This document shows positions 8,386 through 18,758 of a DNA stretch of 64,000 nucleotides, in pieces (position 1 is the first letter of the stretch; every line of letters begins with the position of its first letter). The DNA comes from an uncultured Candidatus Saccharibacteria bacterium (GTDB taxonomy: Bacteria > Patescibacteriota > Saccharimonadia > Saccharimonadales > 2-12-FULL-41-12). The stretch spans positions 341,788 through 405,787 of the forward strand of contig CAMTYB010000001.1 in assembly GCA_947085855.1 (NCBI GenBank), in the 5' to 3' direction. The notes beneath the pieces are model-generated. The model did not search any database and had not been told where the DNA came from. It saw only the letters and a list, made by a program, of their open reading frames with translations. The position numbers were made by a program, and so were the translations under genes.

Positions 8386-8922
8386 TCAATCGGTTTTACG
8401 TGCAAATAGTGAAGCGTGTAAGGAGTAGGCCCGCGGTAATACATTGCTACGGACGTTACGAATACCGCGACTGGCAGCCGTGAGCGCAACCGCTCCAACT
8501 ACTGCCATTCCTAATTCTATACCCATGTAGCTAGCTACTTCTTTTGTACCACTGCCGCTATTTGTTTCTTGAGCCTGAAGTGTACCTATTTGCTGGTTAT
8601 TACTGATGATCTGCATATCAAGCGCATACTGAGCTTGGTCATTAGCTGCTTGCGGCACGTCACCCTGATCCAATACTCGTTGAGCTGTAATCAGCGATTC
8701 GTTTTGATCTTCCAGCTCAGTGATCTCAGCTGTCGCTTTGTGAGATTCGCCTGTTAAATTTCCAGCTACAACAACACCTCCAGCCATACCAACCATCAGC
8801 CCACCAAATGTGGAGAATGGTTGCTGTTTAACGGTTTCGTCTATTCGGTCAAGCGTGTGGTCAAATCCACTCCTAGCCCACGCTGCTGCAAAATATGCTT
8901 CGTCTTTCATTCTTTCAATCAT
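8386..8922 (-). CDS. hypothetical membrane protein
   Basis: 178 aa with two hydrophobic segments flanking a Gln-rich coiled-coil-like segment. Confidence 0.5.
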   Translation of the reverse strand: MIERMKDEAYFAAAWARSGFDHTLDRIDETVKQQPFSTFGGLMVGMAGGVVVAGNLTGESHKATAEITELEDQNESLITAQRVLDQGDVPQAANDQAQYALDMQIISNNQQIGTLQAQETNSGSGTKEVASYMGIELGMAVVGAVALTAASRGIRNVRSNVLPRAYSLHASLFARKTD

Positions 8923-9060
8923 GAGCCTATTATCACCAACACCTTCTGGTCATGCAAGCATAAGGACTCTACTATGCTCGTTTGGTGATTCATCCAAGGC
9001 AGTACTTGCATTTCTTTAATTTAGGTGTATAAATAATCATTAATTAAGTTAGGGAGATCT

Positions 9061-9459
9061 ATGCGTAATTTTGAACCGGTTCAAGGCCTAGTATCTGAAG
9101 AAGTTTTTGATACCTTTATAACCAGTAAATGGCCCGGACTTTTTGGTGGAACAGCTCATCACAGCCTTACTAATGACGTAGATTTAGGAAAATGCGTCGA
9201 AGCGCTTGAAGCTACTGTTGCACTCAGCCCAATGGAAGAAAGAGATATGCTGGCAGATATGGGCATAATTGAGCAAGAACCACGCCCAGAATACCTTGAT
9301 GAACCAAGAGATTTTCGTTTCACTACAGCTGGTCATCAATTAGTTTCACTGTGCGAAGGCTTATACACACCAGAAGAACACGAGGCAAGAGAAGCAGAAG
9401 CCAAAGTTCGCATAGAAGAATCAAAAGCTGAACACGAAGAGTGGTTAAGCCAGCAGTAA
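9061..9459 (+). CDS. hypothetical acidic protein
   Basis: 132 aa. GGGAGA SD-like sequence 6 nt upstream of the ATG. Confidence 0.55.
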   Translation: MRNFEPVQGLVSEEVFDTFITSKWPGLFGGTAHHSLTNDVDLGKCVEALEATVALSPMEERDMLADMGIIEQEPRPEYLDEPRDFRFTTAGHQLVSLCEGLYTPEEHEAREAEAKVRIEESKAEHEEWLSQQ

Positions 9460-9535
9460 ACTGGTTATCCTAAGTTACAAATCAATCCGGACAACTCATC
9501 TCGCTTCTTGAGAGTGACAGGACTTAACAGGAATC

Positions 9536-9563
9536 TGGTGGAGGCACCGGGGATCGAACCCGG
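9536..9563 (-). pseudogene. orphan tRNA 3' fragment (T arm + acceptor 3' strand + CCA)
   Basis: Minus strand CCGGG TTCGATC CCCGG TGCCTCC A CCA. No matching 5' acceptor strand (GG[AG]GG[CT][AG]) within 400 nt. Confidence 0.6.
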
Positions 9564-9644
9564 CCAAAACAAGATTGAAAAACAGATGTAAAGACGCTAA
9601 ACTGAAATAGGTTCGCATCCTATGTGCACGGCACCAGCCGTACT

Positions 9645-9673
9645 AAAAAGAGAGCATTTCATGCTCTCTTTTC
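9645..9673 (-). terminator. bidirectional intrinsic terminator after the 168-aa ORF
   Basis: AAAAGAGAGCAT, loop TTC, ATGCTCTCTTTT. U-tracts on both strands. Confidence 0.7.
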
Positions 9674-9731
9674 TTATTTGTCACTAGGCGGACAAACCAC
9701 TTGGAAGATTTGACCAAAACTTGCCTAGATT

Positions 9732-10238
9732 TTACCACTCACCGGTATCAAAGTCTTGATCTTGATTAGGTACATACTCTCTTACGGCTTCCTGCTCCAC
9801 ATTTGGTAATAATGCACCTACCGCCGTTGCGGTAATAACGCCATACGCAAAATCTATCGGGTCTGGTGTGCTTTCCCAATGCATAAGCTTTGTACCAAAT
9901 TTAGTTTCTACAAGTCCATTCACTAAAAGTCCAACCGATAATCCGCCTAGCGCCATTTTGGCTCTAATTGATAACCTACTATCTTCACGCTCACCACCTC
10001 TGCTTGCTCTATCAGTGACCAGCTTGCCAACTATTAGACCGCCCGCGTAACCTAATTGGGCTGAACCGTTTATATTTCCAGCGTGGTCAAATACATCAAA
10101 CGGTTCAGGTAAAATATCTCTTGCGCCGTCTCCGTCTTTTGCAATTAAAAGGGCGATGCAACTCATCGCAAGTACACCGTACTTTATACTAGCGTGTGAC
10201 ACCTTGTTACTCAATTGTTCTACATAAGGCATAATCAA
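9732..10238 (-). CDS. hypothetical membrane protein
   Basis: 168 aa. The track start is TTG at 10238. An ATG at 10232 (MPYVEQ...) is more likely given the promoter spacing. Confidence 0.55.
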   Translation of the reverse strand: MIMPYVEQLSNKVSHASIKYGVLAMSCIALLIAKDGDGARDILPEPFDVFDHAGNINGSAQLGYAGGLIVGKLVTDRASRGGEREDSRLSIRAKMALGGLSVGLLVNGLVETKFGTKLMHWESTPDPIDFAYGVITATAVGALLPNVEQEAVREYVPNQDQDFDTGEW

Positions 10239-10241
10239 ACT

Positions 10242-10270
10242 ATTTTAACACTTCTAGCTATTTATGTCAA
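10242..10270 (-). promoter_or_regulatory. consensus-like promoter (TTGACA-17 nt-TAAAAT)
   Basis: Minus strand TTGACA (10270-10265), 17-nt spacer, TAAAAT (10247-10242). The predicted TSS lies 2-4 nt before the ATG at 10232, implying a near-leaderless mRNA. Confidence 0.45.
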
Positions 10271-10517
10271 TAATACTTGTGTTGTAATTAGCGGAATACC
10301 ATTGGTCGGGGTGACAGGACGAGTCGCTAGGCTCCGATATTTCCTCAAGTGCTCGGAGCAAACTCCTGTGCGCTTTCGTCATATGTGCACCGGCGACTAC
10401 GATCTTTGCTTCGCAAATCTCTGCTGCAGAACCAAGTTTGTGACCACAGATGCAAAAAGACGAACCACCTTCGGTGAGTCGTCTTTTATATGCATATGGT
10501 CGAGTTGGACTGATCAA
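10254..10517 (-). CDS. doubtful ORF (87 aa, CICGHK motif)
   Basis: Fully overlapped by a 102-aa ORF on the opposite strand. Its C-terminus (SSCHPDQW) reads through the tRNA-Pro 3' fragment. Possibly a gene remnant. Confidence 0.25.
   Translation of the reverse strand: MISPTRPYAYKRRLTEGGSSFCICGHKLGSAAEICEAKIVVAGAHMTKAHRSLLRALEEISEPSDSSCHPDQWYSANYNTSIIDINS
10303..10319 (-). pseudogene. displaced 3' end of tRNA-Pro (T CCTGT CACCCCG A CCA)
   Basis: Exact complement of the acceptor 5' strand CGGGGTG and of T-stem GCAGG found at 11782-11841. CCA encoded. Confidence 0.7.
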
Positions 10518-10536
10518 CCTTGAACAGTTAGCCTAA

Positions 10537-10842
10537 TTAGTAACGCACAGGTCGTGGAGCAATTGGTGTAGTCGGCATTTCACCGACATGTGGAATCGTT
10601 GCTGGTGATTGTTCGGGAGCTTGAGAAGTTAGAGTAGCCTCGTAATTCTCCACTGCACGACCATCAATACCTAGCCAGTTCTTGTAGTCTGGGTCAAATG
10701 TGTGACCTGCTTCGAGTTCGTCATTAACTCTCTGTGTCATACGGGCACGATTGTATCGCTGTAAACCTACGAGTGCGGTATTTAGCCCAACCCAAAAGAC
10801 TGCTTGTCCAGGGCTTTTGCCCTCAACCATATTATTAGCCAC
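10537..10842 (-). CDS. hypothetical protein
   Basis: 101 aa, GTG start (an ATG at 10830 is an alternative). Confidence 0.45.
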   Translation of the reverse strand: MANNMVEGKSPGQAVFWVGLNTALVGLQRYNRARMTQRVNDELEAGHTFDPDYKNWLGIDGRAVENYEATLTSQAPEQSPATIPHVGEMPTTPIAPRPVRY

Positions 10843-10927
10843 CTCATGAGCTTCCGGTAACGCCGCTACAGTATGAACAGCTTCATTGAAAACACTGCCA
10901 CCTGCAGCAAATTGAGTAGGTCATAAT

Positions 10928-11080
10928 ATGAGCGATTTTGACGAAGCAACCGATGGCTTAGGCAGTATTCATAGTTCGGCAGCAGATCCGCAGGATACGC
11001 CGCCCGCCTACACCCCATCAGATAACGACGGCAATACCATCCACCTGGATGATGACCATGGTGACGCTAATACTCTTTAG
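10928..11080 (+). CDS. small acidic hypothetical protein (51 aa)
   Basis: ATG at 10928, TAG at 11078-11080. Translates MSDFDEATDGLGSIHSSAADPQDTPPAYTPSDNDGNTIHLDDDHGDANTL. Below the ORF-track cutoff. Confidence 0.3.
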   Translation: MSDFDEATDGLGSIHSSAADPQDTPPAYTPSDNDGNTIHLDDDHGDANTL

Positions 11081-11178
11081 CCACAAATAGCTTGAACTAT
11101 AGTTAAATACTATATCTAAGAAGTTGAAGCATGAAAGGTATTGCATAAATTGTAATACTATGGTATAATTCAAGTATT

Positions 11179-11637
11179 ATGTCAAGAAGTGTAGCGGAAG
11201 TAACTGGCAAAATGCCCTTTGCGGGCAAACATGTAGTTAAATCTACGTACGAGCATGGGCGTGAGTCAAGTCGTCACGGTAGAATTGGCGGAAAGATAGC
11301 TAGTTCTATAGGCTTAGTAGTGTTTGCTGGTTTACATGCCCGACAATTAGATATGGGTATAAATGAACTTGTTCATCATAGTGGCGATCAAAATGCAGCC
11401 GAAGTTGGTATTGATGCCGCTTACACTATGGCTAACGCAATGGCTACGTACACTCAGGCATACTTAGGTCTTAGGGTACTTGGCACTCGATCAGAAGTAG
11501 TTACTGCCGCACCCGAAGGTGTTATGGCTGTTTCTGGACCACCCCGTAAGGAAATCGAGCCGCTCAAGATGCCATCTGCTACTGAGCTTGCTGTTACATT
11601 AGGCGGACAAATACTGTTTGTAGCTACAATGAAGTAG
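11179..11637 (+). CDS. hypothetical membrane protein
   Basis: 152 aa with one or two hydrophobic segments. Confidence 0.5.
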   Translation: MSRSVAEVTGKMPFAGKHVVKSTYEHGRESSRHGRIGGKIASSIGLVVFAGLHARQLDMGINELVHHSGDQNAAEVGIDAAYTMANAMATYTQAYLGLRVLGTRSEVVTAAPEGVMAVSGPPRKEIEPLKMPSATELAVTLGGQILFVATMK

Positions 11638-11767
11638 TGCTGACTGCTGTTTCACTGAAATGCTTATGCTATATGGGAGGGATACTATGCCTGGTAGACG
11701 TATGCAGGGTCAACGAGTATTGTGTAAGAAAAACAGGAATGGGACGGAATAAGGTTACGTTTACAGC

Positions 11768-11841
11768 AGAGTGTCTGAAACTTCGAACCTGCAACCTCAC
11801 GGCCCCCAGCCGTACGCGCTAGCCAACTGCGCCACACCCCG
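11768..11841 (-). tRNA. tRNA-Pro(GGG), disrupted after T-loop position 59
   Basis: Minus strand CGGGGTG TG GCGC AGTTGGCTA GCGC G TACGG CTGGGGG CCGTG AGGTT GCAGG TTCGAA, then non-tRNA sequence. The downstream ACACTCT gives only a G-U-rich pseudo-acceptor pairing. Confidence 0.7.
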
Positions 11842-11887
11842 AGGTGTCATGCTTCCCTATTTTAAAGACTTCACCAGATTTGTAAAT

Positions 11888-11917
11888 AAATAAGCGACCG
11901 TCTAGGGTCGCTTATTT
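11888..11917 (-). terminator. bidirectional hairpin terminator
   Basis: TAAGCGACC (11891-11899), loop GTCTAG, GGTCGCTTA (11906-11914). Flanked by an A-run and a T-run. Confidence 0.5.
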
Positions 11918-12086
11918 AAAAGAGTTACTAGGATTATTGGTCGAGTCGGTCCGACTATGATTAGCTTGGCAAGAACCAAGTGGGTGAACGCACATACTGG
12001 CCACGGCCGGTATAAATATTGTTCTCCCTAAATCACAACTATTCAAGATAATCGTTGTGTCGGGTTGTCGCCCTCGACCACCTCTA

Positions 12087-12710
12087 TTATAGCAAGAAAT
12101 CGAGCACTTGTTGATTCAAATTTGAGATAATGTCCGTGAAAGCTGGCACGGCTAGCACCAAGCCAAAGACAATGAAAATACCCACATTTTCGAGGCTTTC
12201 CATCACCCGCCTCAGCGGATCTGGCGCAAAGGCATACAAGAACCGTGAGCCGTCCAACGGCGGAATTGGGATCATATTAAACACAAACAAACCGATGTTT
12301 ATGATGACAAAAATAGCTACCACGTCTGTTACCGCGAGACTGAGGTCACCTTGGAACAACTTAAGGAAGACCGCGCCAAAGGCGGCCAACCCCAAATTAG
12401 TCAGCGGACCGGCCACACCAACGAGCGCCGCACCAAACTCATCAAACTTTACCCGATCAGGATTAAACGGCACTGGCTTGGCCGCCAACAGCGGCACTTT
12501 GAAGACAATGAGCGTAATGAGTGGCAACAACAGCGTTAGATACGGGTCTATGTGCTTGATAGGGTTGAGTGTAATTCTGCCTTCGTCTTTAGCCGTGCTA
12601 TCGCCGAGCCAGTGACTGGTAAAGGCGTGCATAGCCTCATGAATAGTGATAGACACAACGAGTACCAAAAACACCGTGATCAGTGTTCCAAAATCTAACG
12701 TATCAAACAT
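12087..12710 (-). CDS. site-2 protease family (M50) zinc metalloprotease
   Basis: 207 aa, HEAMHAFTSHWLGD (HExxH) in TM1, polytopic, with a downstream PPLDGS motif. Confidence 0.85.
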   Translation of the reverse strand: MFDTLDFGTLITVFLVLVVSITIHEAMHAFTSHWLGDSTAKDEGRITLNPIKHIDPYLTLLLPLITLIVFKVPLLAAKPVPFNPDRVKFDEFGAALVGVAGPLTNLGLAAFGAVFLKLFQGDLSLAVTDVVAIFVIINIGLFVFNMIPIPPLDGSRFLYAFAPDPLRRVMESLENVGIFIVFGLVLAVPAFTDIISNLNQQVLDFLL

Positions 12711-12774
12711 ATGCTTCTCAGTATATCAAACTGTAGTTATCCGCCGGCTGGGCTTTTTGAAGATAGTTTATGTC

Positions 12775-12878
12775 GGGGCACATTTTAAAAGGCACACGCA
12801 GTGTGCCGTGGGCATAAAGTTAACACCTTACAGCCCTGAATGTCGGCACACGGAGTGTGCCCTTTTGAATATGGTCCA
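12775..12878. repeat. palindromic MITE/REP-like element, copy A
   Basis: Hairpins GGCACAC GCA GTGTGCC (12791-12807) and GGCACAC GGA GTGTGCC (12845-12861). Inverted A/T-rich ends and a TTAACACCTTA core. Homologous to 18781-18897 and 37456-37559. Confidence 0.75.
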
Positions 12879-12896
12879 ACTATACACCGCAAACTG

Positions 12897-12925
12897 TTGA
12901 CTTCAGAGGTGTTACAGGGTAGAAT
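12897..12925 (+). promoter_or_regulatory. rpmB promoter (TTGACT-17 nt-TAGAAT)
   Basis: -35 at 12897-12902 and -10 at 12920-12925. Only 6 nt separate the -10 from the rpmB ATG (12932), and there is no SD, implying a leaderless mRNA. Confidence 0.5.
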
Positions 12926-12931
12926 ATAGGG

Positions 12932-13159
12932 ATGCAAAAATGTGAAATTACTGGTAAAGGCAAGCAATACGGCCACAACGTGAGCTTTTCTTTGCGCCGT
13001 ACCAAGAAAGTTTGGAAGCCAAATCTCCAAACCAAGACCGTCATTGTTGACGGTAAAAAGGTCCGCCTCAAGGTCAGCACCTCTGCTATCCGAACCTTGA
13101 AAAAGAAGGGCCTTCTCACAACTCCTCAAGCAGCCGCCAAAGCTGAAGCCAAGAAGTAA
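12932..13159 (+). CDS. rpmB: 50S ribosomal protein L28
   Basis: 75 aa, MQKCEITGKGKQYGHNVSFSLRRTKKVWKPNLQ. Confidence 0.95.
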   Translation: MQKCEITGKGKQYGHNVSFSLRRTKKVWKPNLQTKTVIVDGKKVRLKVSTSAIRTLKKKGLLTTPQAAAKAEAKK

Positions 13160-18681: not shown

Positions 18682-18758
18682 GGGCGATTAGCTCATTTGG
18701 CTAGAGCGCAGCATTGACGTTGCTGAGGTGATAGGTTCGAATCCTATATCGCCCACCA
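18682..18758 (+). tRNA. tRNA-Val(GAC)
   Basis: GGGCGAT TA GCTC ATTTGGCTA GAGC G CAGCA TTGACGT TGCTG AGGTG ATAGG TTCGAAT CCTAT ATCGCCC A CCA. Confidence 0.95.

What the first reader, a model, noticed from the sequence alone, without database searches (positions are those of the whole stretch)
10303..11841. tRNA-Pro(GGG) gene split cleanly in its T-loop by a 1,462-bp ORFan insertion
On the minus strand, 11841 to 11782 reads as a textbook tRNA-Pro: C1 acceptor CGGGGTG, D arm, anticodon loop CTGGGGG, variable AGGTT, T-stem GCAGG, then TTCGAA. It then runs into unrelated sequence. The missing end (T CCTGT CACCCCG A CCA) sits 1,462 bp further along the same strand at 10319 to 10303. Joining the two pieces restores a perfect 5-bp T stem, a TTCGAAT loop and a 7-bp acceptor stem. 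The intervening DNA carries ORFans on both strands (10537-10842 minus, 10928-11080 plus, 11179-11637 plus). I saw no integrase, no transposase, and no inverted repeats or target duplication. The 3' piece is followed at once by a consensus promoter for the next gene, so this is the old chromosomal junction. Classical tRNA-targeting islands regenerate the tRNA 3' end, and this insertion does not. The likely readings are a decayed element that killed the tRNA, or an insertion mechanism not currently described. A split or trans-assembled tRNA is the least likely reading.
Basis: seen in the sequence. Interest (0 to 1): 0.72.

Follow-up and report, generated by a model that had tools for sequence, protein, structure and literature searches.

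The report
Broken proline tRNA gene in element graveyard
A proline tRNA gene in a Saccharibacteria (TM7) genome really is split by about 1.46 kb of foreign DNA, most likely a dead gene left where serine-recombinase mobile elements repeatedly insert, so it is a moderately interesting scar and not a new kind of split tRNA.

Summary
Minus strand 11841-11782 and 10319-10303 are the two parts of a tRNA-Pro(GGG) gene. ARAGORN calls the join but not the native DNA. Two independent assemblies carry the identical arrangement.

Three details change. The closest relative (96% identical flank) has the native T arm AGGTC GCAGG TTCAAGT CCTGT. So the 5' piece carries two changes (C-to-T, one extra G), and both junctions end in GT. 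The "ORFans" have homologues in other Saccharibacteria. The 3' piece is not the old chromosomal junction, because conserved synteny resumes only at 4815; about 7 kb (4816-11779) is island.

In relatives, large serine recombinase (LSR) genes run convergently into the 3' end of this same tRNA and of tRNA-Leu, -Val and -Gly. Homologues of insert gene 11179-11637 and of gene 9732-10238 sit beside such LSRs. The 3' piece is followed by about 13 nt of LSR-tail coding, so that LSR gene was deleted.

Best reading: stacked remnants of LSR elements. The last event, at the T-loop GT, did not rebuild the tRNA, leaving a pseudogene. Intron, trans-assembled tRNA and assembly artefact are not supported. No recombinase remains in the window, and the exact last step is inferred.

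The parts
11780..11841 (-). 5' fragment of tRNA-Pro(GGG). The first 48 nt (11841-11794) are native, then T for C at 11793, GCAGG, and TTC+G+AAGT. The GT at 11781-11780 is the proposed crossover dinucleotide.
11859..11886 (-). Promoter-like site (TTTACA-16-TAAAAT) upstream of the tRNA fragment. It is still intact and now points into the insert, antisense to 11179-11637.
10321..11779 (.).
   Evidence: It has no homologue at this locus in the 80 GTDB relatives, apart from one weak partial hit to the 10537-10842 protein in L053 and a short m2 DNA copy in L005.
11138..11637 (+). Promoter plus gene for a 152-aa helical protein of unknown function ('o152'), antisense to the tRNA. Its homologues are recurrent cargo downstream of tRNA genes and next to LSR genes.
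10928..11080 (+). 50-aa acidic ORF upstream of o152. Small ORFs of 51-52 aa sit upstream of o152 homologues in L086/L088 and L090, with no detectable sequence similarity.
10537..10842 (-). 101-aa ORF on the tRNA strand. It has one weak partial homologue, in L053.
10497..10529 (-). Motif 'm2': a diverged copy of the 3' end of the conserved RNA-like element at 11925-12080. The same motif occurs in islands of L094 and L005.
10465..10477 (-). Core hairpin of an intrinsic-terminator-like site on the tRNA strand, plus its T tail, lying between the 5' fragment and the 3' piece. The longer arms are 10455-10487.
   Evidence: (I6)
10303..10320 (-). 3' piece of tRNA-Pro: GT CCTGT CACCCCG A CCA, with 18 nt identical to the native gene.
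10290..10302 (-). Scar: ATGGTATTCCGCT, resembling the first codons of the LSR tail that follow ACCA in L010 (ATAAGTATTTTGT). In L099, about 1.7 kb of LSR gene sits here.
9732..10289 (-). Promoter (TTGACA-17-TAAAAT, 10270-10242) and 168-aa gene. They are homologous (71% nt, 75% aa) to the gene that lies 64 nt from the LSR start codon in L099.
4816..9731 (.). Rest of the older island: ORFs without family, TauE and DMT_6 transporters, and a 72-nt tRNA-like gene at 6010-6081. None of it is found at this locus in relatives.
4147..4815 (-). Pterin-4a/RNase H fusion gene, the point where conserved synteny resumes. In relatives it follows tRNA-Pro directly.
12087..12710 (-). M50 (site-2) peptidase gene, the conserved upstream flank used to find relatives.

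Best explanation
The window comes from a Saccharibacteria (TM7) genome. In this group the 3' part of tRNA-Pro(GGG) is a recurrent attachment site for integrative elements that encode a large serine recombinase (LSR). The LSR reading frame runs convergently into the tRNA and ends inside the complement of its T loop.

The region 4816-11779 is a stack of remnants of such elements.

Step 1 (supported): an L099-like element (LSR, then the 168-aa gene and so on) sat at the tRNA and supplied its 3' end. Its LSR gene was later deleted, leaving 13 nt of tail coding between ACCA and the promoter of 9732-10238.

Step 2 (inferred): a second recombination at the T-loop dinucleotide GT placed 1459 bp between tRNA position 60 and the old 3' end. 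This DNA carries the o152 module typical of these elements. Either a recombinase-less circle was integrated by an LSR acting in trans, or an LSR joined the tRNA half-site to a secondary site inside its own element and so deleted the rebuilt tRNA end together with its own gene.

Because the incoming arm (TTCAGACAC...) is not a copy of the tRNA 3' end, the gene was not rebuilt.

Step 3 (supported): the gene is now dead. It is not detected as a tRNA. A terminator lies between the pieces. The 5' fragment has picked up two changes in a sequence that is otherwise invariant across far more distant relatives.
For: Organism and synteny:
-. In about 30 relatives the order is M50 peptidase, intact tRNA-Pro(GGG), RNase H fusion gene.
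- The window has about 7 kb of unshared DNA in between.

Native sequence and GT at both junctions.

LSR genes (Pfam Resolvase plus Recombinase above cut-off) overlap tRNA 3' ends as follows.
- L010, L094, L099/L100 and pseudo-LSR L005 overlap tRNA-Pro(GGG), with the tail ..GRGDRT* encoded by the complement of CACCCCGACCA and the T loop.
- L090 overlaps tRNA-Leu(GAG), L023 tRNA-Val(GAC), and L103/L104 tRNA-Gly(GCC).

Link of the 3' piece to an LSR element:
- L099 reads tRNA | LSR | 64 nt | homologue of 9732-10238.
- The window reads 3' piece | 13 nt resembling the LSR tail coding of L010 | the same intergenic sequence.

Link of the insert to LSR elements:
- o152 homologues lie beside the LSR in L090 and L094. 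The L094 copy is at this same peptidase locus.
- They lie antisense downstream of tRNA-Leu genes in L086 and L091.
- The o152 homologue in L085 is 82% identical, although the flanking peptidase is only 52% identical, which suggests transfer.
- The m2 motif is shared with the L094 and L005 islands.

Other points:
- Displaced tRNA-Pro fragments also occur in L012, L015 and L006.
- There are no repeats longer than 2 bp at the junctions, no terminal inverted repeats, and no transposase or tyrosine integrase.
- The arrangement is reproduced in two independent assemblies.
Against: - There is no LSR gene or fragment anywhere in the 64-kb window, so the enzyme for step 2 is hypothetical.
- The crossover position of this LSR family is not established. 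I found no attP and no element with both ends. No displaced 3' piece was found in L099, L010 or the viral contig L132.
- Displaced fragments in L012 and L015 start at other tRNA positions.
- A shared GT has a 1/16 chance of occurring by accident.
- The arms around the putative attP (GCGACTC GT TTCAGACAC) show no dyad symmetry.
- Two extra mutations in the 5' fragment (C-to-T, +G) must be assumed. Both lie within the last 13 nt, which is slightly odd for random decay (about 5%).
- In L085 the o152 gene has the opposite orientation next to an intact tRNA.
Confidence: 0.55

Rival explanations
1. The setting is the same (remnants of integrated elements at a tRNA hot spot), but the last step was not site-specific. 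An ordinary deletion or illegitimate recombination removed the element-supplied tRNA 3' end, the LSR and its neighbour, and happened to end in the T loop. Alternatively, foreign DNA was patched in by illegitimate recombination after uptake.
For: - The neighbouring LSR was clearly lost by a plain deletion, possibly at a short CTAA(A/T)T microhomology.
- LSR pseudogenes and frameshifts occur in L005, L094 and L100.
- The extra G in TTCGAAGT fits a junction at TTC|GAAG as well as a later mutation does.
- No recombinase is present in the window.
Against: - The left end of the 3' piece is a boundary in its own right. A random deletion would have to end within 0-3 nt of the complementary position in the 5' fragment.
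- Both junctions carry the same dinucleotide.
Confidence: 0.33
2. The 1.46 kb is an intron (group I, group II or a new type) that is spliced out of a long precursor to give a working tRNA-Pro.
For: [quoted passage not shown]
- The base before the 3' piece is G.
Against: - No group I or II intron model matches 9800-12400 even at E up to 10.
- All bacterial tRNA group I introns catalogued in PMC13011429 lie in the anticodon loop, apart from one group II intron in a D loop. None is in the T loop.
- The insert holds separately promoted genes on both strands and a terminator on the tRNA strand ahead of the 3' piece.
- Its genes occur elsewhere outside any tRNA.
- The closest relative has no such insert within the T arm.
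Confidence: 0.03
3. A split tRNA: the 5' and 3' parts are transcribed separately and assembled in trans, as in Nanoarchaeum.
For: The tRNA promoter is intact, and the two parts together give a cloverleaf.
Against: - No promoter-like site precedes the 3' piece on its strand.
- The flanks show no more complementarity than shuffled sequence: 87% of shuffles pair at least as well.
- The organism is a bacterium, and no bacterial machinery for this is known (own knowledge).
- The 5' part has changes at otherwise invariant positions.
Confidence: 0.02
4. Assembly artefact: one or both junctions are chimeric joins in a metagenome-assembled genome.
For: Contigs of three close relatives break inside this tRNA, so the site is hard to assemble.
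Against: Assemblies of two unrelated runs, plus the 817,656-bp NCBI contig, carry the same 4-kb stretch at 100% identity.
Confidence: 0.02

Closest known systems
Large-serine-recombinase prophages and islands that interrupt their target gene (SPbeta in spsM, skin in sigK, A118 in comK; 'regulated gene integrity', PMC7192596)
   Same: - Insertion at one defined position.
- Only a 2-bp core is shared by the junctions.
- There are no inverted repeats.
- The target is not rebuilt.
   Different: - The target here is a tRNA gene.
- The inserted DNA is only 1.46 kb and has no recombinase.
- The 5' fragment has mutated, so precise excision would not restore the native gene.
Classical tRNA-targeting islands and prophages with tyrosine integrases (for example attB sites of M. 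abscessus prophages, PMC8092301)
   Same: - A tRNA 3' region is used as a hot spot.
- Displaced 3' fragments and successive elements pile up downstream of the tRNA.
   Different: - Those elements share a 25-76-bp core with the tRNA and rebuild it.
- Here the junctions share 2 bp, the tRNA is not rebuilt, and the recombinases found at this tRNA in relatives are serine, not tyrosine, enzymes.
Tycheposons and cryptic elements of Prochlorococcus (bioRxiv 10.1101/2020.12.28.424599)
   Same: - Small cargo-carrying elements stacked at tRNA genes in a streamlined genome.
- A minority (27 of 937) carry a large serine recombinase instead of a tyrosine recombinase.
   Different: - Different phylum.
- The LSR frame ending inside the tRNA is not described in the text I read.
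- Those elements keep the tRNA intact.
[quoted passage not shown]
   Same: Same phylum. A tRNA gene is made invisible to ARAGORN or tRNAscan by intervening DNA.
   Different: - Those introns sit in the anticodon loop (35/36), match group I models and self-splice.
- This insert is in the T loop, matches no intron model, and carries genes on both strands and a terminator.
phiRSM filamentous phages of Ralstonia, which use a small resolvase-like serine recombinase (Askora et al. 2011, listed as ref. 22 in PMC7192596). That its attB is a tRNA-Ser 3' end is from my own memory.
   Same: A serine-family recombinase using the 3' end of a tRNA gene.
   Different: - A small serine recombinase, in a filamentous phage.
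- The tRNA is restored.

Membership tests
Functional tRNA gene | Contiguous cloverleaf recognised by tRNA finders | tested here: not met
   ARAGORN finds none on native DNA, with or without introns allowed. Rfam tRNA scores 25 bits against a gathering score of 29.
Group I intron in a tRNA gene | Conserved catalytic core detectable by the Rfam group I model | tested here: not met
   No intron family matches 9800-12400 at E up to 10.
Group I intron in a tRNA gene | Insertion in the anticodon loop | tested here: not met
   The insertion lies in the T loop. Known bacterial sites are in the anticodon loop (PMC13011429).
Group II intron | Domain V/VI RNA and usually a reverse-transcriptase ORF | tested here: not met
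   No Rfam hit. No RT domain in the insert ORFs.
Split or trans-spliced tRNA (archaeal type) | Complementary leader sequences or a bulge-helix-bulge at the junctions, and a separate promoter for each half | tested here: not met
   Flank duplex energy is no better than that of shuffles. There is no promoter-like site before the 3' piece.
Large serine recombinase integrative element | An LSR gene (Resolvase catalytic domain plus Recombinase and zinc-ribbon domains) inside the element | tested here: not met
   There is none in the insert or in the whole window. Such genes are present in related islands at the same tRNA: L010, L094, L099.
Large serine recombinase integrative element | attL and attR share only the central dinucleotide, with no longer direct repeat | tested here: met
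   GT is present at 11781-11780 and at 10320-10319. There is no longer repeat. The chance of a shared dinucleotide is 1/16.
Large serine recombinase integrative element | Attachment sites of about 40-50 bp with imperfect dyad symmetry, recombined by the cognate enzyme | tested here: inconclusive
   No symmetry was seen by eye around GCGACTC GT TTCAGACAC. The activity is not testable with these tools.
Large serine recombinase integrative element | Cargo homologous to that of bona fide members | tested here: met
   o152 lies next to the LSR in L090 and L094. The 168-aa gene lies next to the LSR in L099.
Tyrosine-integrase tRNA island | A tyrosine integrase gene, and a direct repeat of the tRNA 3' end (tens of bp) at both ends | tested here: not met
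   No integrase domain in the island ORFs without a family assignment. The repeat is only 2 bp.
Insertion sequence or transposon | Transposase, terminal inverted repeats, target-site duplication | tested here: not met
   No transposase. No terminal inverted repeats at 10321/11779.

The most novel reading that the evidence does not exclude
The 1.46-kb cassette (o50-o152-o101) may be an intact, non-autonomous integrative element that tRNA-targeting large serine recombinases move in trans. On this reading it inserts at the T-loop GT without rebuilding the tRNA. It would then be a recombinase parasite that can switch tRNA-Pro(GGG) off, and by excision perhaps on again, within a population.
Probability: 0.1. 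Interest if true: 0.65.

Novelty: new variant of a known kind. Interest (0 to 1): 0.38.

Why it matters
On its own this is a tRNA pseudogene in a genomic island, and losing tRNA-Pro(GGG) may well be tolerable. CCY makes up 28% of proline codons here, and a UGG isoacceptor can read them in other reduced genomes (own knowledge). I could not check whether such a tRNA exists in this genome.

The wider value is what the locus reveals. [quoted passage not shown] The recombinase's last codons are written on the complement of the tRNA. This niche is normally held by tyrosine integrases.

That is useful in three ways:
- for mapping mobile DNA in CPR genomes;
- for understanding why assemblies break at these tRNAs;
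- possibly as a source of serine integrases with highly conserved natural targets.

The window shows the failure mode of that system: an event that does not rebuild the tRNA.

Tried and rejected
- **Intron reading:** an Rfam scan at E up to 10 found nothing.
- **Trans-assembly reading:** the flanks are not complementary.
- **Empty site or other copies in JGI metagenomes:** two exact-pattern scans (5' variant, and 3' piece plus flank) both found nothing.
- **Circle junction in viral contigs:** none.
- **o152 in viral contigs and GenBank phages:** none.
- **Single-sequence LSR queries in viral contigs:** none. An alignment query found four distant LSRs, two of them overlapping tRNA-Gly.
- **Second end (displaced 3' piece) of an intact LSR element, to fix the crossover point:** not found in L099, L010 or L094, nor in the 13.6-kb viral contig.
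- **Simple inversion relative to L085:** rejected, because no inverted copy of the 3' piece exists.
- **5' junction tail as a diverged tRNA 3' mimic or a copy of m2:** alignments are not significant.
- **Function of the insert proteins:** no Pfam, PHROGs or PADLOC hits. The AlphaFold model of o152 is helical but of low confidence (pLDDT 57), so I ran no fold search.
Full report
**1. Is it there?**

Yes. On the minus strand, 11841-11782 reads as the first 60 nt of a tRNA-Pro(GGG), and 10319-10303 reads T CCTGT CACCCCG A CCA.
- ARAGORN reports five tRNAs in the window, none of them here. It finds nothing on the native stretch even when long introns are allowed, but it calls a 77-nt tRNA-Pro(ggg) once the two pieces are joined.
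- Rfam's tRNA model gives the native 5' part 25 bits, below the gathering score of 29.
- The 17-mer is unique in the window. Dinucleotide-preserving shuffles give 0.06 matches even with three mismatches allowed.
- Window 9000-13000 is 100% identical in contigs assembled from two unrelated runs, ERR4904396 and ERR3478710. The insert protein is also recorded on an 817,656-bp NCBI contig.

An assembly chimera is therefore very unlikely.

**2. Whose genome, and what is normal at this locus?**

The flanking M50 peptidase finds 80 loci, nearly all labelled Saccharibacteria/Saccharimonadales.
- In about 30 of them an intact tRNA-Pro(GGG) lies 200-300 bp from the peptidase gene.
- In the syntenic ones it is followed at once by a pterin-4a/RNase H fusion gene. 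The window copy of that gene is at 4147-4815.
- Nothing between 4816 and 11781 has a homologue at this locus in those relatives, apart from a weak partial hit to the 10537-10842 protein in L053.

So about 7 kb is island, and the 3' piece lies inside it. It is not the old chromosomal junction.

**3. What the native gene looked like**

The closest relative is L096. Its peptidase is 99% identical in protein, and the 247-bp spacer before the tRNA is 96% identical in DNA.
- L096 reads ...GCCGTG AGGTC GCAGG TTCAAGT CCTGT CACC before its contig ends. L098 (88% peptidase) reads the same through the T arm; L097 (86%) matches until its contig ends at AGGTCG.
- The same 77-nt sequence is invariant in much more distant genomes.
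- The window's 5' fragment matches it for 48 nt. It then has T for C at 11793 and an extra G, giving TTCGAAGT.
- The 3' piece matches the native gene for 18 nt, starting with G (10320).
- Both junctions therefore read GT: ..TTCGAA GT TTCAGACAC.. and ..GCGACTC GT CCTGTCAC..

The neat TTCGAA|T join is one possible reading but not the ancestral sequence. ARAGORN accepts either join, so the in-silico join cannot tell the two boundaries apart. Two changes in a stretch that is otherwise frozen fit a gene that is no longer under selection.

**4. Serine recombinases live at this tRNA**

Following homologues of the insert gene 11179-11637 (o152; 14 homologues) and of gene 9732-10238 (7 homologues) into their contigs showed a repeated picture. 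A large serine recombinase gene (Pfam Resolvase plus Recombinase above cut-off) lies convergent to a tRNA gene, and its reading frame runs into the tRNA's 3' end.

| Locus | tRNA overlapped | LSR tail or state |
|---|---|---|
| L010 | Pro(GGG) | ..ILIGRGDRT* |
| L094 | Pro(GGG) | ..ILSGRGDRT* |
| L099 / L100 | Pro(GGG) | ..VPFGRGDRT* |
| L005 | Pro(GGG) | decayed copy; L005 is the closest GTDB relative |
| L090 | Leu(GAG) | ..GARERT* |
| L023 | Val(GAC) | frame runs 19 codons into the tRNA complement |
| L103 / L104 (IMG/VR contigs) | Gly(GCC) | distant homologues |

For the Pro and Leu cases the stop codon TGA is the complement of T-loop positions 55-57. Such an arrangement is expected if the element's attachment site lies within the end of the recombinase gene and includes a copy of the tRNA 3' end that rebuilds the gene on integration. 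That last sentence is an inference from the anatomy; I found no attP.

**5. Ties between the window and those elements**

(a) L099 reads: peptidase, tRNA-Pro, LSR on the opposite strand, 64 nt, then a 75%-identical homologue of 9732-10238.
- The window reads: 3' piece, 13 nt, then the same intergenic sequence (AATTACA...TTGACA...) and gene.
- The 13 nt (ATGGTATTCCGCT) resemble the first bases after ACCA in L010 (ATAAGTATTTTGT), which encode the LSR tail.
- So the 3' piece with its scar is what remains of the recombinase end of an older element. About 1.7 kb of LSR gene has been deleted.

(b) o152 homologues sit next to the LSR in L090 and L094. The L094 copy is at this very peptidase locus.
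- They also lie downstream of tRNA-Leu genes, and antisense to them, in L086-L089 and L091.
- The L085 copy is 82% identical in protein and 80% in DNA, including 40 bp of promoter, while the adjacent peptidase is only 52% identical. This points to transfer between lineages.

(c) A 33-nt motif at 10497-10529 recurs in the islands of L094 and L005.

(d) Stray tRNA-Pro fragments sit next to intact genes in L012, L015 and L006. The orientation of the tRNA relative to the peptidase also flips among relatives. This locus is a busy recombination site.

**6. Most likely history**

Shown:
- The tRNA is interrupted.
- The interruption and everything down to 4816 is island DNA.
- The 3' piece adjoins a deleted LSR gene.
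- The insert carries cargo typical of LSR elements.
- The junctions share only GT.
- There are no terminal inverted repeats, no transposase and no integrase.

Inferred:
- The last event was a serine-recombinase exchange at the T-loop GT.
- It happened in one of two ways. Either a recombinase-less circle was integrated by an LSR acting in trans, possibly the neighbour that was later deleted. Or an LSR joined the tRNA half-site to a secondary site in its own element, excising the rebuilt 3' end, its own gene and its neighbour.
- Either way the incoming arm was not a tRNA copy, so the gene stayed broken.

I put 0.55 on this.

The main rival (0.33) keeps the same setting but makes the last step an ordinary deletion or illegitimate join. 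Its weakness is that the break in the 5' fragment would have to fall within 0-3 nt of the position where the 3' piece begins.

**7. Other readings**

*Intron.*
- No group I or II model matches at E up to 10.
- The survey of bacterial tRNA introns, including Patescibacteria, places them in the anticodon loop and none in the T loop (PMC13011429).
- The insert has promoters and genes on both strands and a terminator on the tRNA strand at 10465-10477, ahead of the 3' piece.

*Trans-assembled tRNA.*
- No promoter-like site precedes the 3' piece.
- The flanks pair no better than shuffled sequence.

**8. Consequence**

tRNA-Pro(GGG) is most likely non-functional in this strain.
- CCT and CCC make up 28% of 697 proline codons in 36 long ORFs, so another tRNA-Pro must read them.
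- I could not check the rest of the genome.
- Many more distant Saccharibacteria have no tRNA-Pro(GGG) at this locus.
- The intact tRNA promoter now drives transcription antisense to o152. Whether that matters is unknown.

**9. Comparison with what is known**
- The event works like a serine-integrase insertion that interrupts its target (own knowledge; general framing in PMC7192596).
- The setting looks like a classical tRNA island, but those use tyrosine integrases with 25-76-bp cores that rebuild the tRNA (PMC8092301).
- Large serine recombinases at tRNA-linked elements have a precedent in Prochlorococcus, where 27 of 937 elements carry one (bioRxiv 10.1101/2020.12.28.424599).
- The large LSR catalogue of Durrant et al. 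does not mention tRNA at all.
- The Saccharibacteria LSRs are at most 25% identical to phage integrases in GenBank.

I rate it a new variant of a known kind: real, explainable, and of moderate interest, mostly for the recombinase-tRNA architecture it exposes.

Noticed in passing
window 11925-12080 (-): A conserved RNA-like element of about 150 nt lies between the peptidase stop codon and the tRNA-Pro promoter. It has its own TATAAT, a closing stem GGTCGAG/CTCGACC, the end ..ACTCGACCA, and then a terminator hairpin (11887-11918). It is conserved in L096, L097, L098, L094, L099 and L085, with some compensatory pairs. It has no Rfam match at E up to 10.
   Followed up: partly
window 10480-10550 (-); L094 7416-7448; L005 8802-8841 and about 11217-11250: Motif 'm2' is a diverged copy of the last 60 nt or so of that RNA-like element (0 of 3000 shuffles reach the alignment score). 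In L005 and L094 it opens a conserved coding module, GRVGAI(N/E)LEQL...KVLAYEL*. This suggests that some elements also target the 3' end of that RNA gene.
   Followed up: partly
window 6010-6081 (-): The 'tRNA-Arg(gcg)' called by ARAGORN inside the island is odd. It is 72 nt, has the T loop TTTGATT, and its ends (GGGGGTACAGACTGG... and ...CCCGATACCTCCACCA) resemble the 5' and 3' ends of a tmRNA. It is absent from relatives' loci and may be another attachment-site remnant or an element-borne tRNA-like gene.
   Followed up: no
L096 8177-8246, L097 2564-2613, L098 1077-1146: Contigs of the three closest relatives all end inside tRNA-Pro(GGG). This suggests the assembly graph branches there because strains differ downstream of the tRNA.
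   Followed up: no
L010 3307-3360, L099 8225-8280, L090 10930-10985: A perfect 10-13-bp hairpin (CTAAATCCACCAT...ATGGTGGATTTAG) lies within the last codons of the LSR genes, just 3' of the tRNA. It is conserved between elements that target different tRNAs. It could be a terminator for the tRNA or a recombinase binding site.
   Followed up: no
window 4000-4114; L099 14806-14923: A non-coding block is 83% identical between distant genomes. It lies between the RNase H fusion gene (window) or queA (L099) and the rplT-rpmI-infC genes. It may be a leader or a small RNA.
   Followed up: no
L005, L008, L011, L016, L018, L026, L040, L054, L094: In these relatives tRNA-Pro(GGG) points towards the peptidase gene instead of away from it. 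Variable DNA (0.2-5 kb) always lies on its 3' side, so the tRNA together with its island has been inverted repeatedly in this group.
   Followed up: partly
L023 255-1866: A further LSR reads 19 codons into the complement of tRNA-Val(GAC). The window's own tRNA-Val(GAC) at 18682-18758 is intact and has no recombinase next to it.
   Followed up: partly
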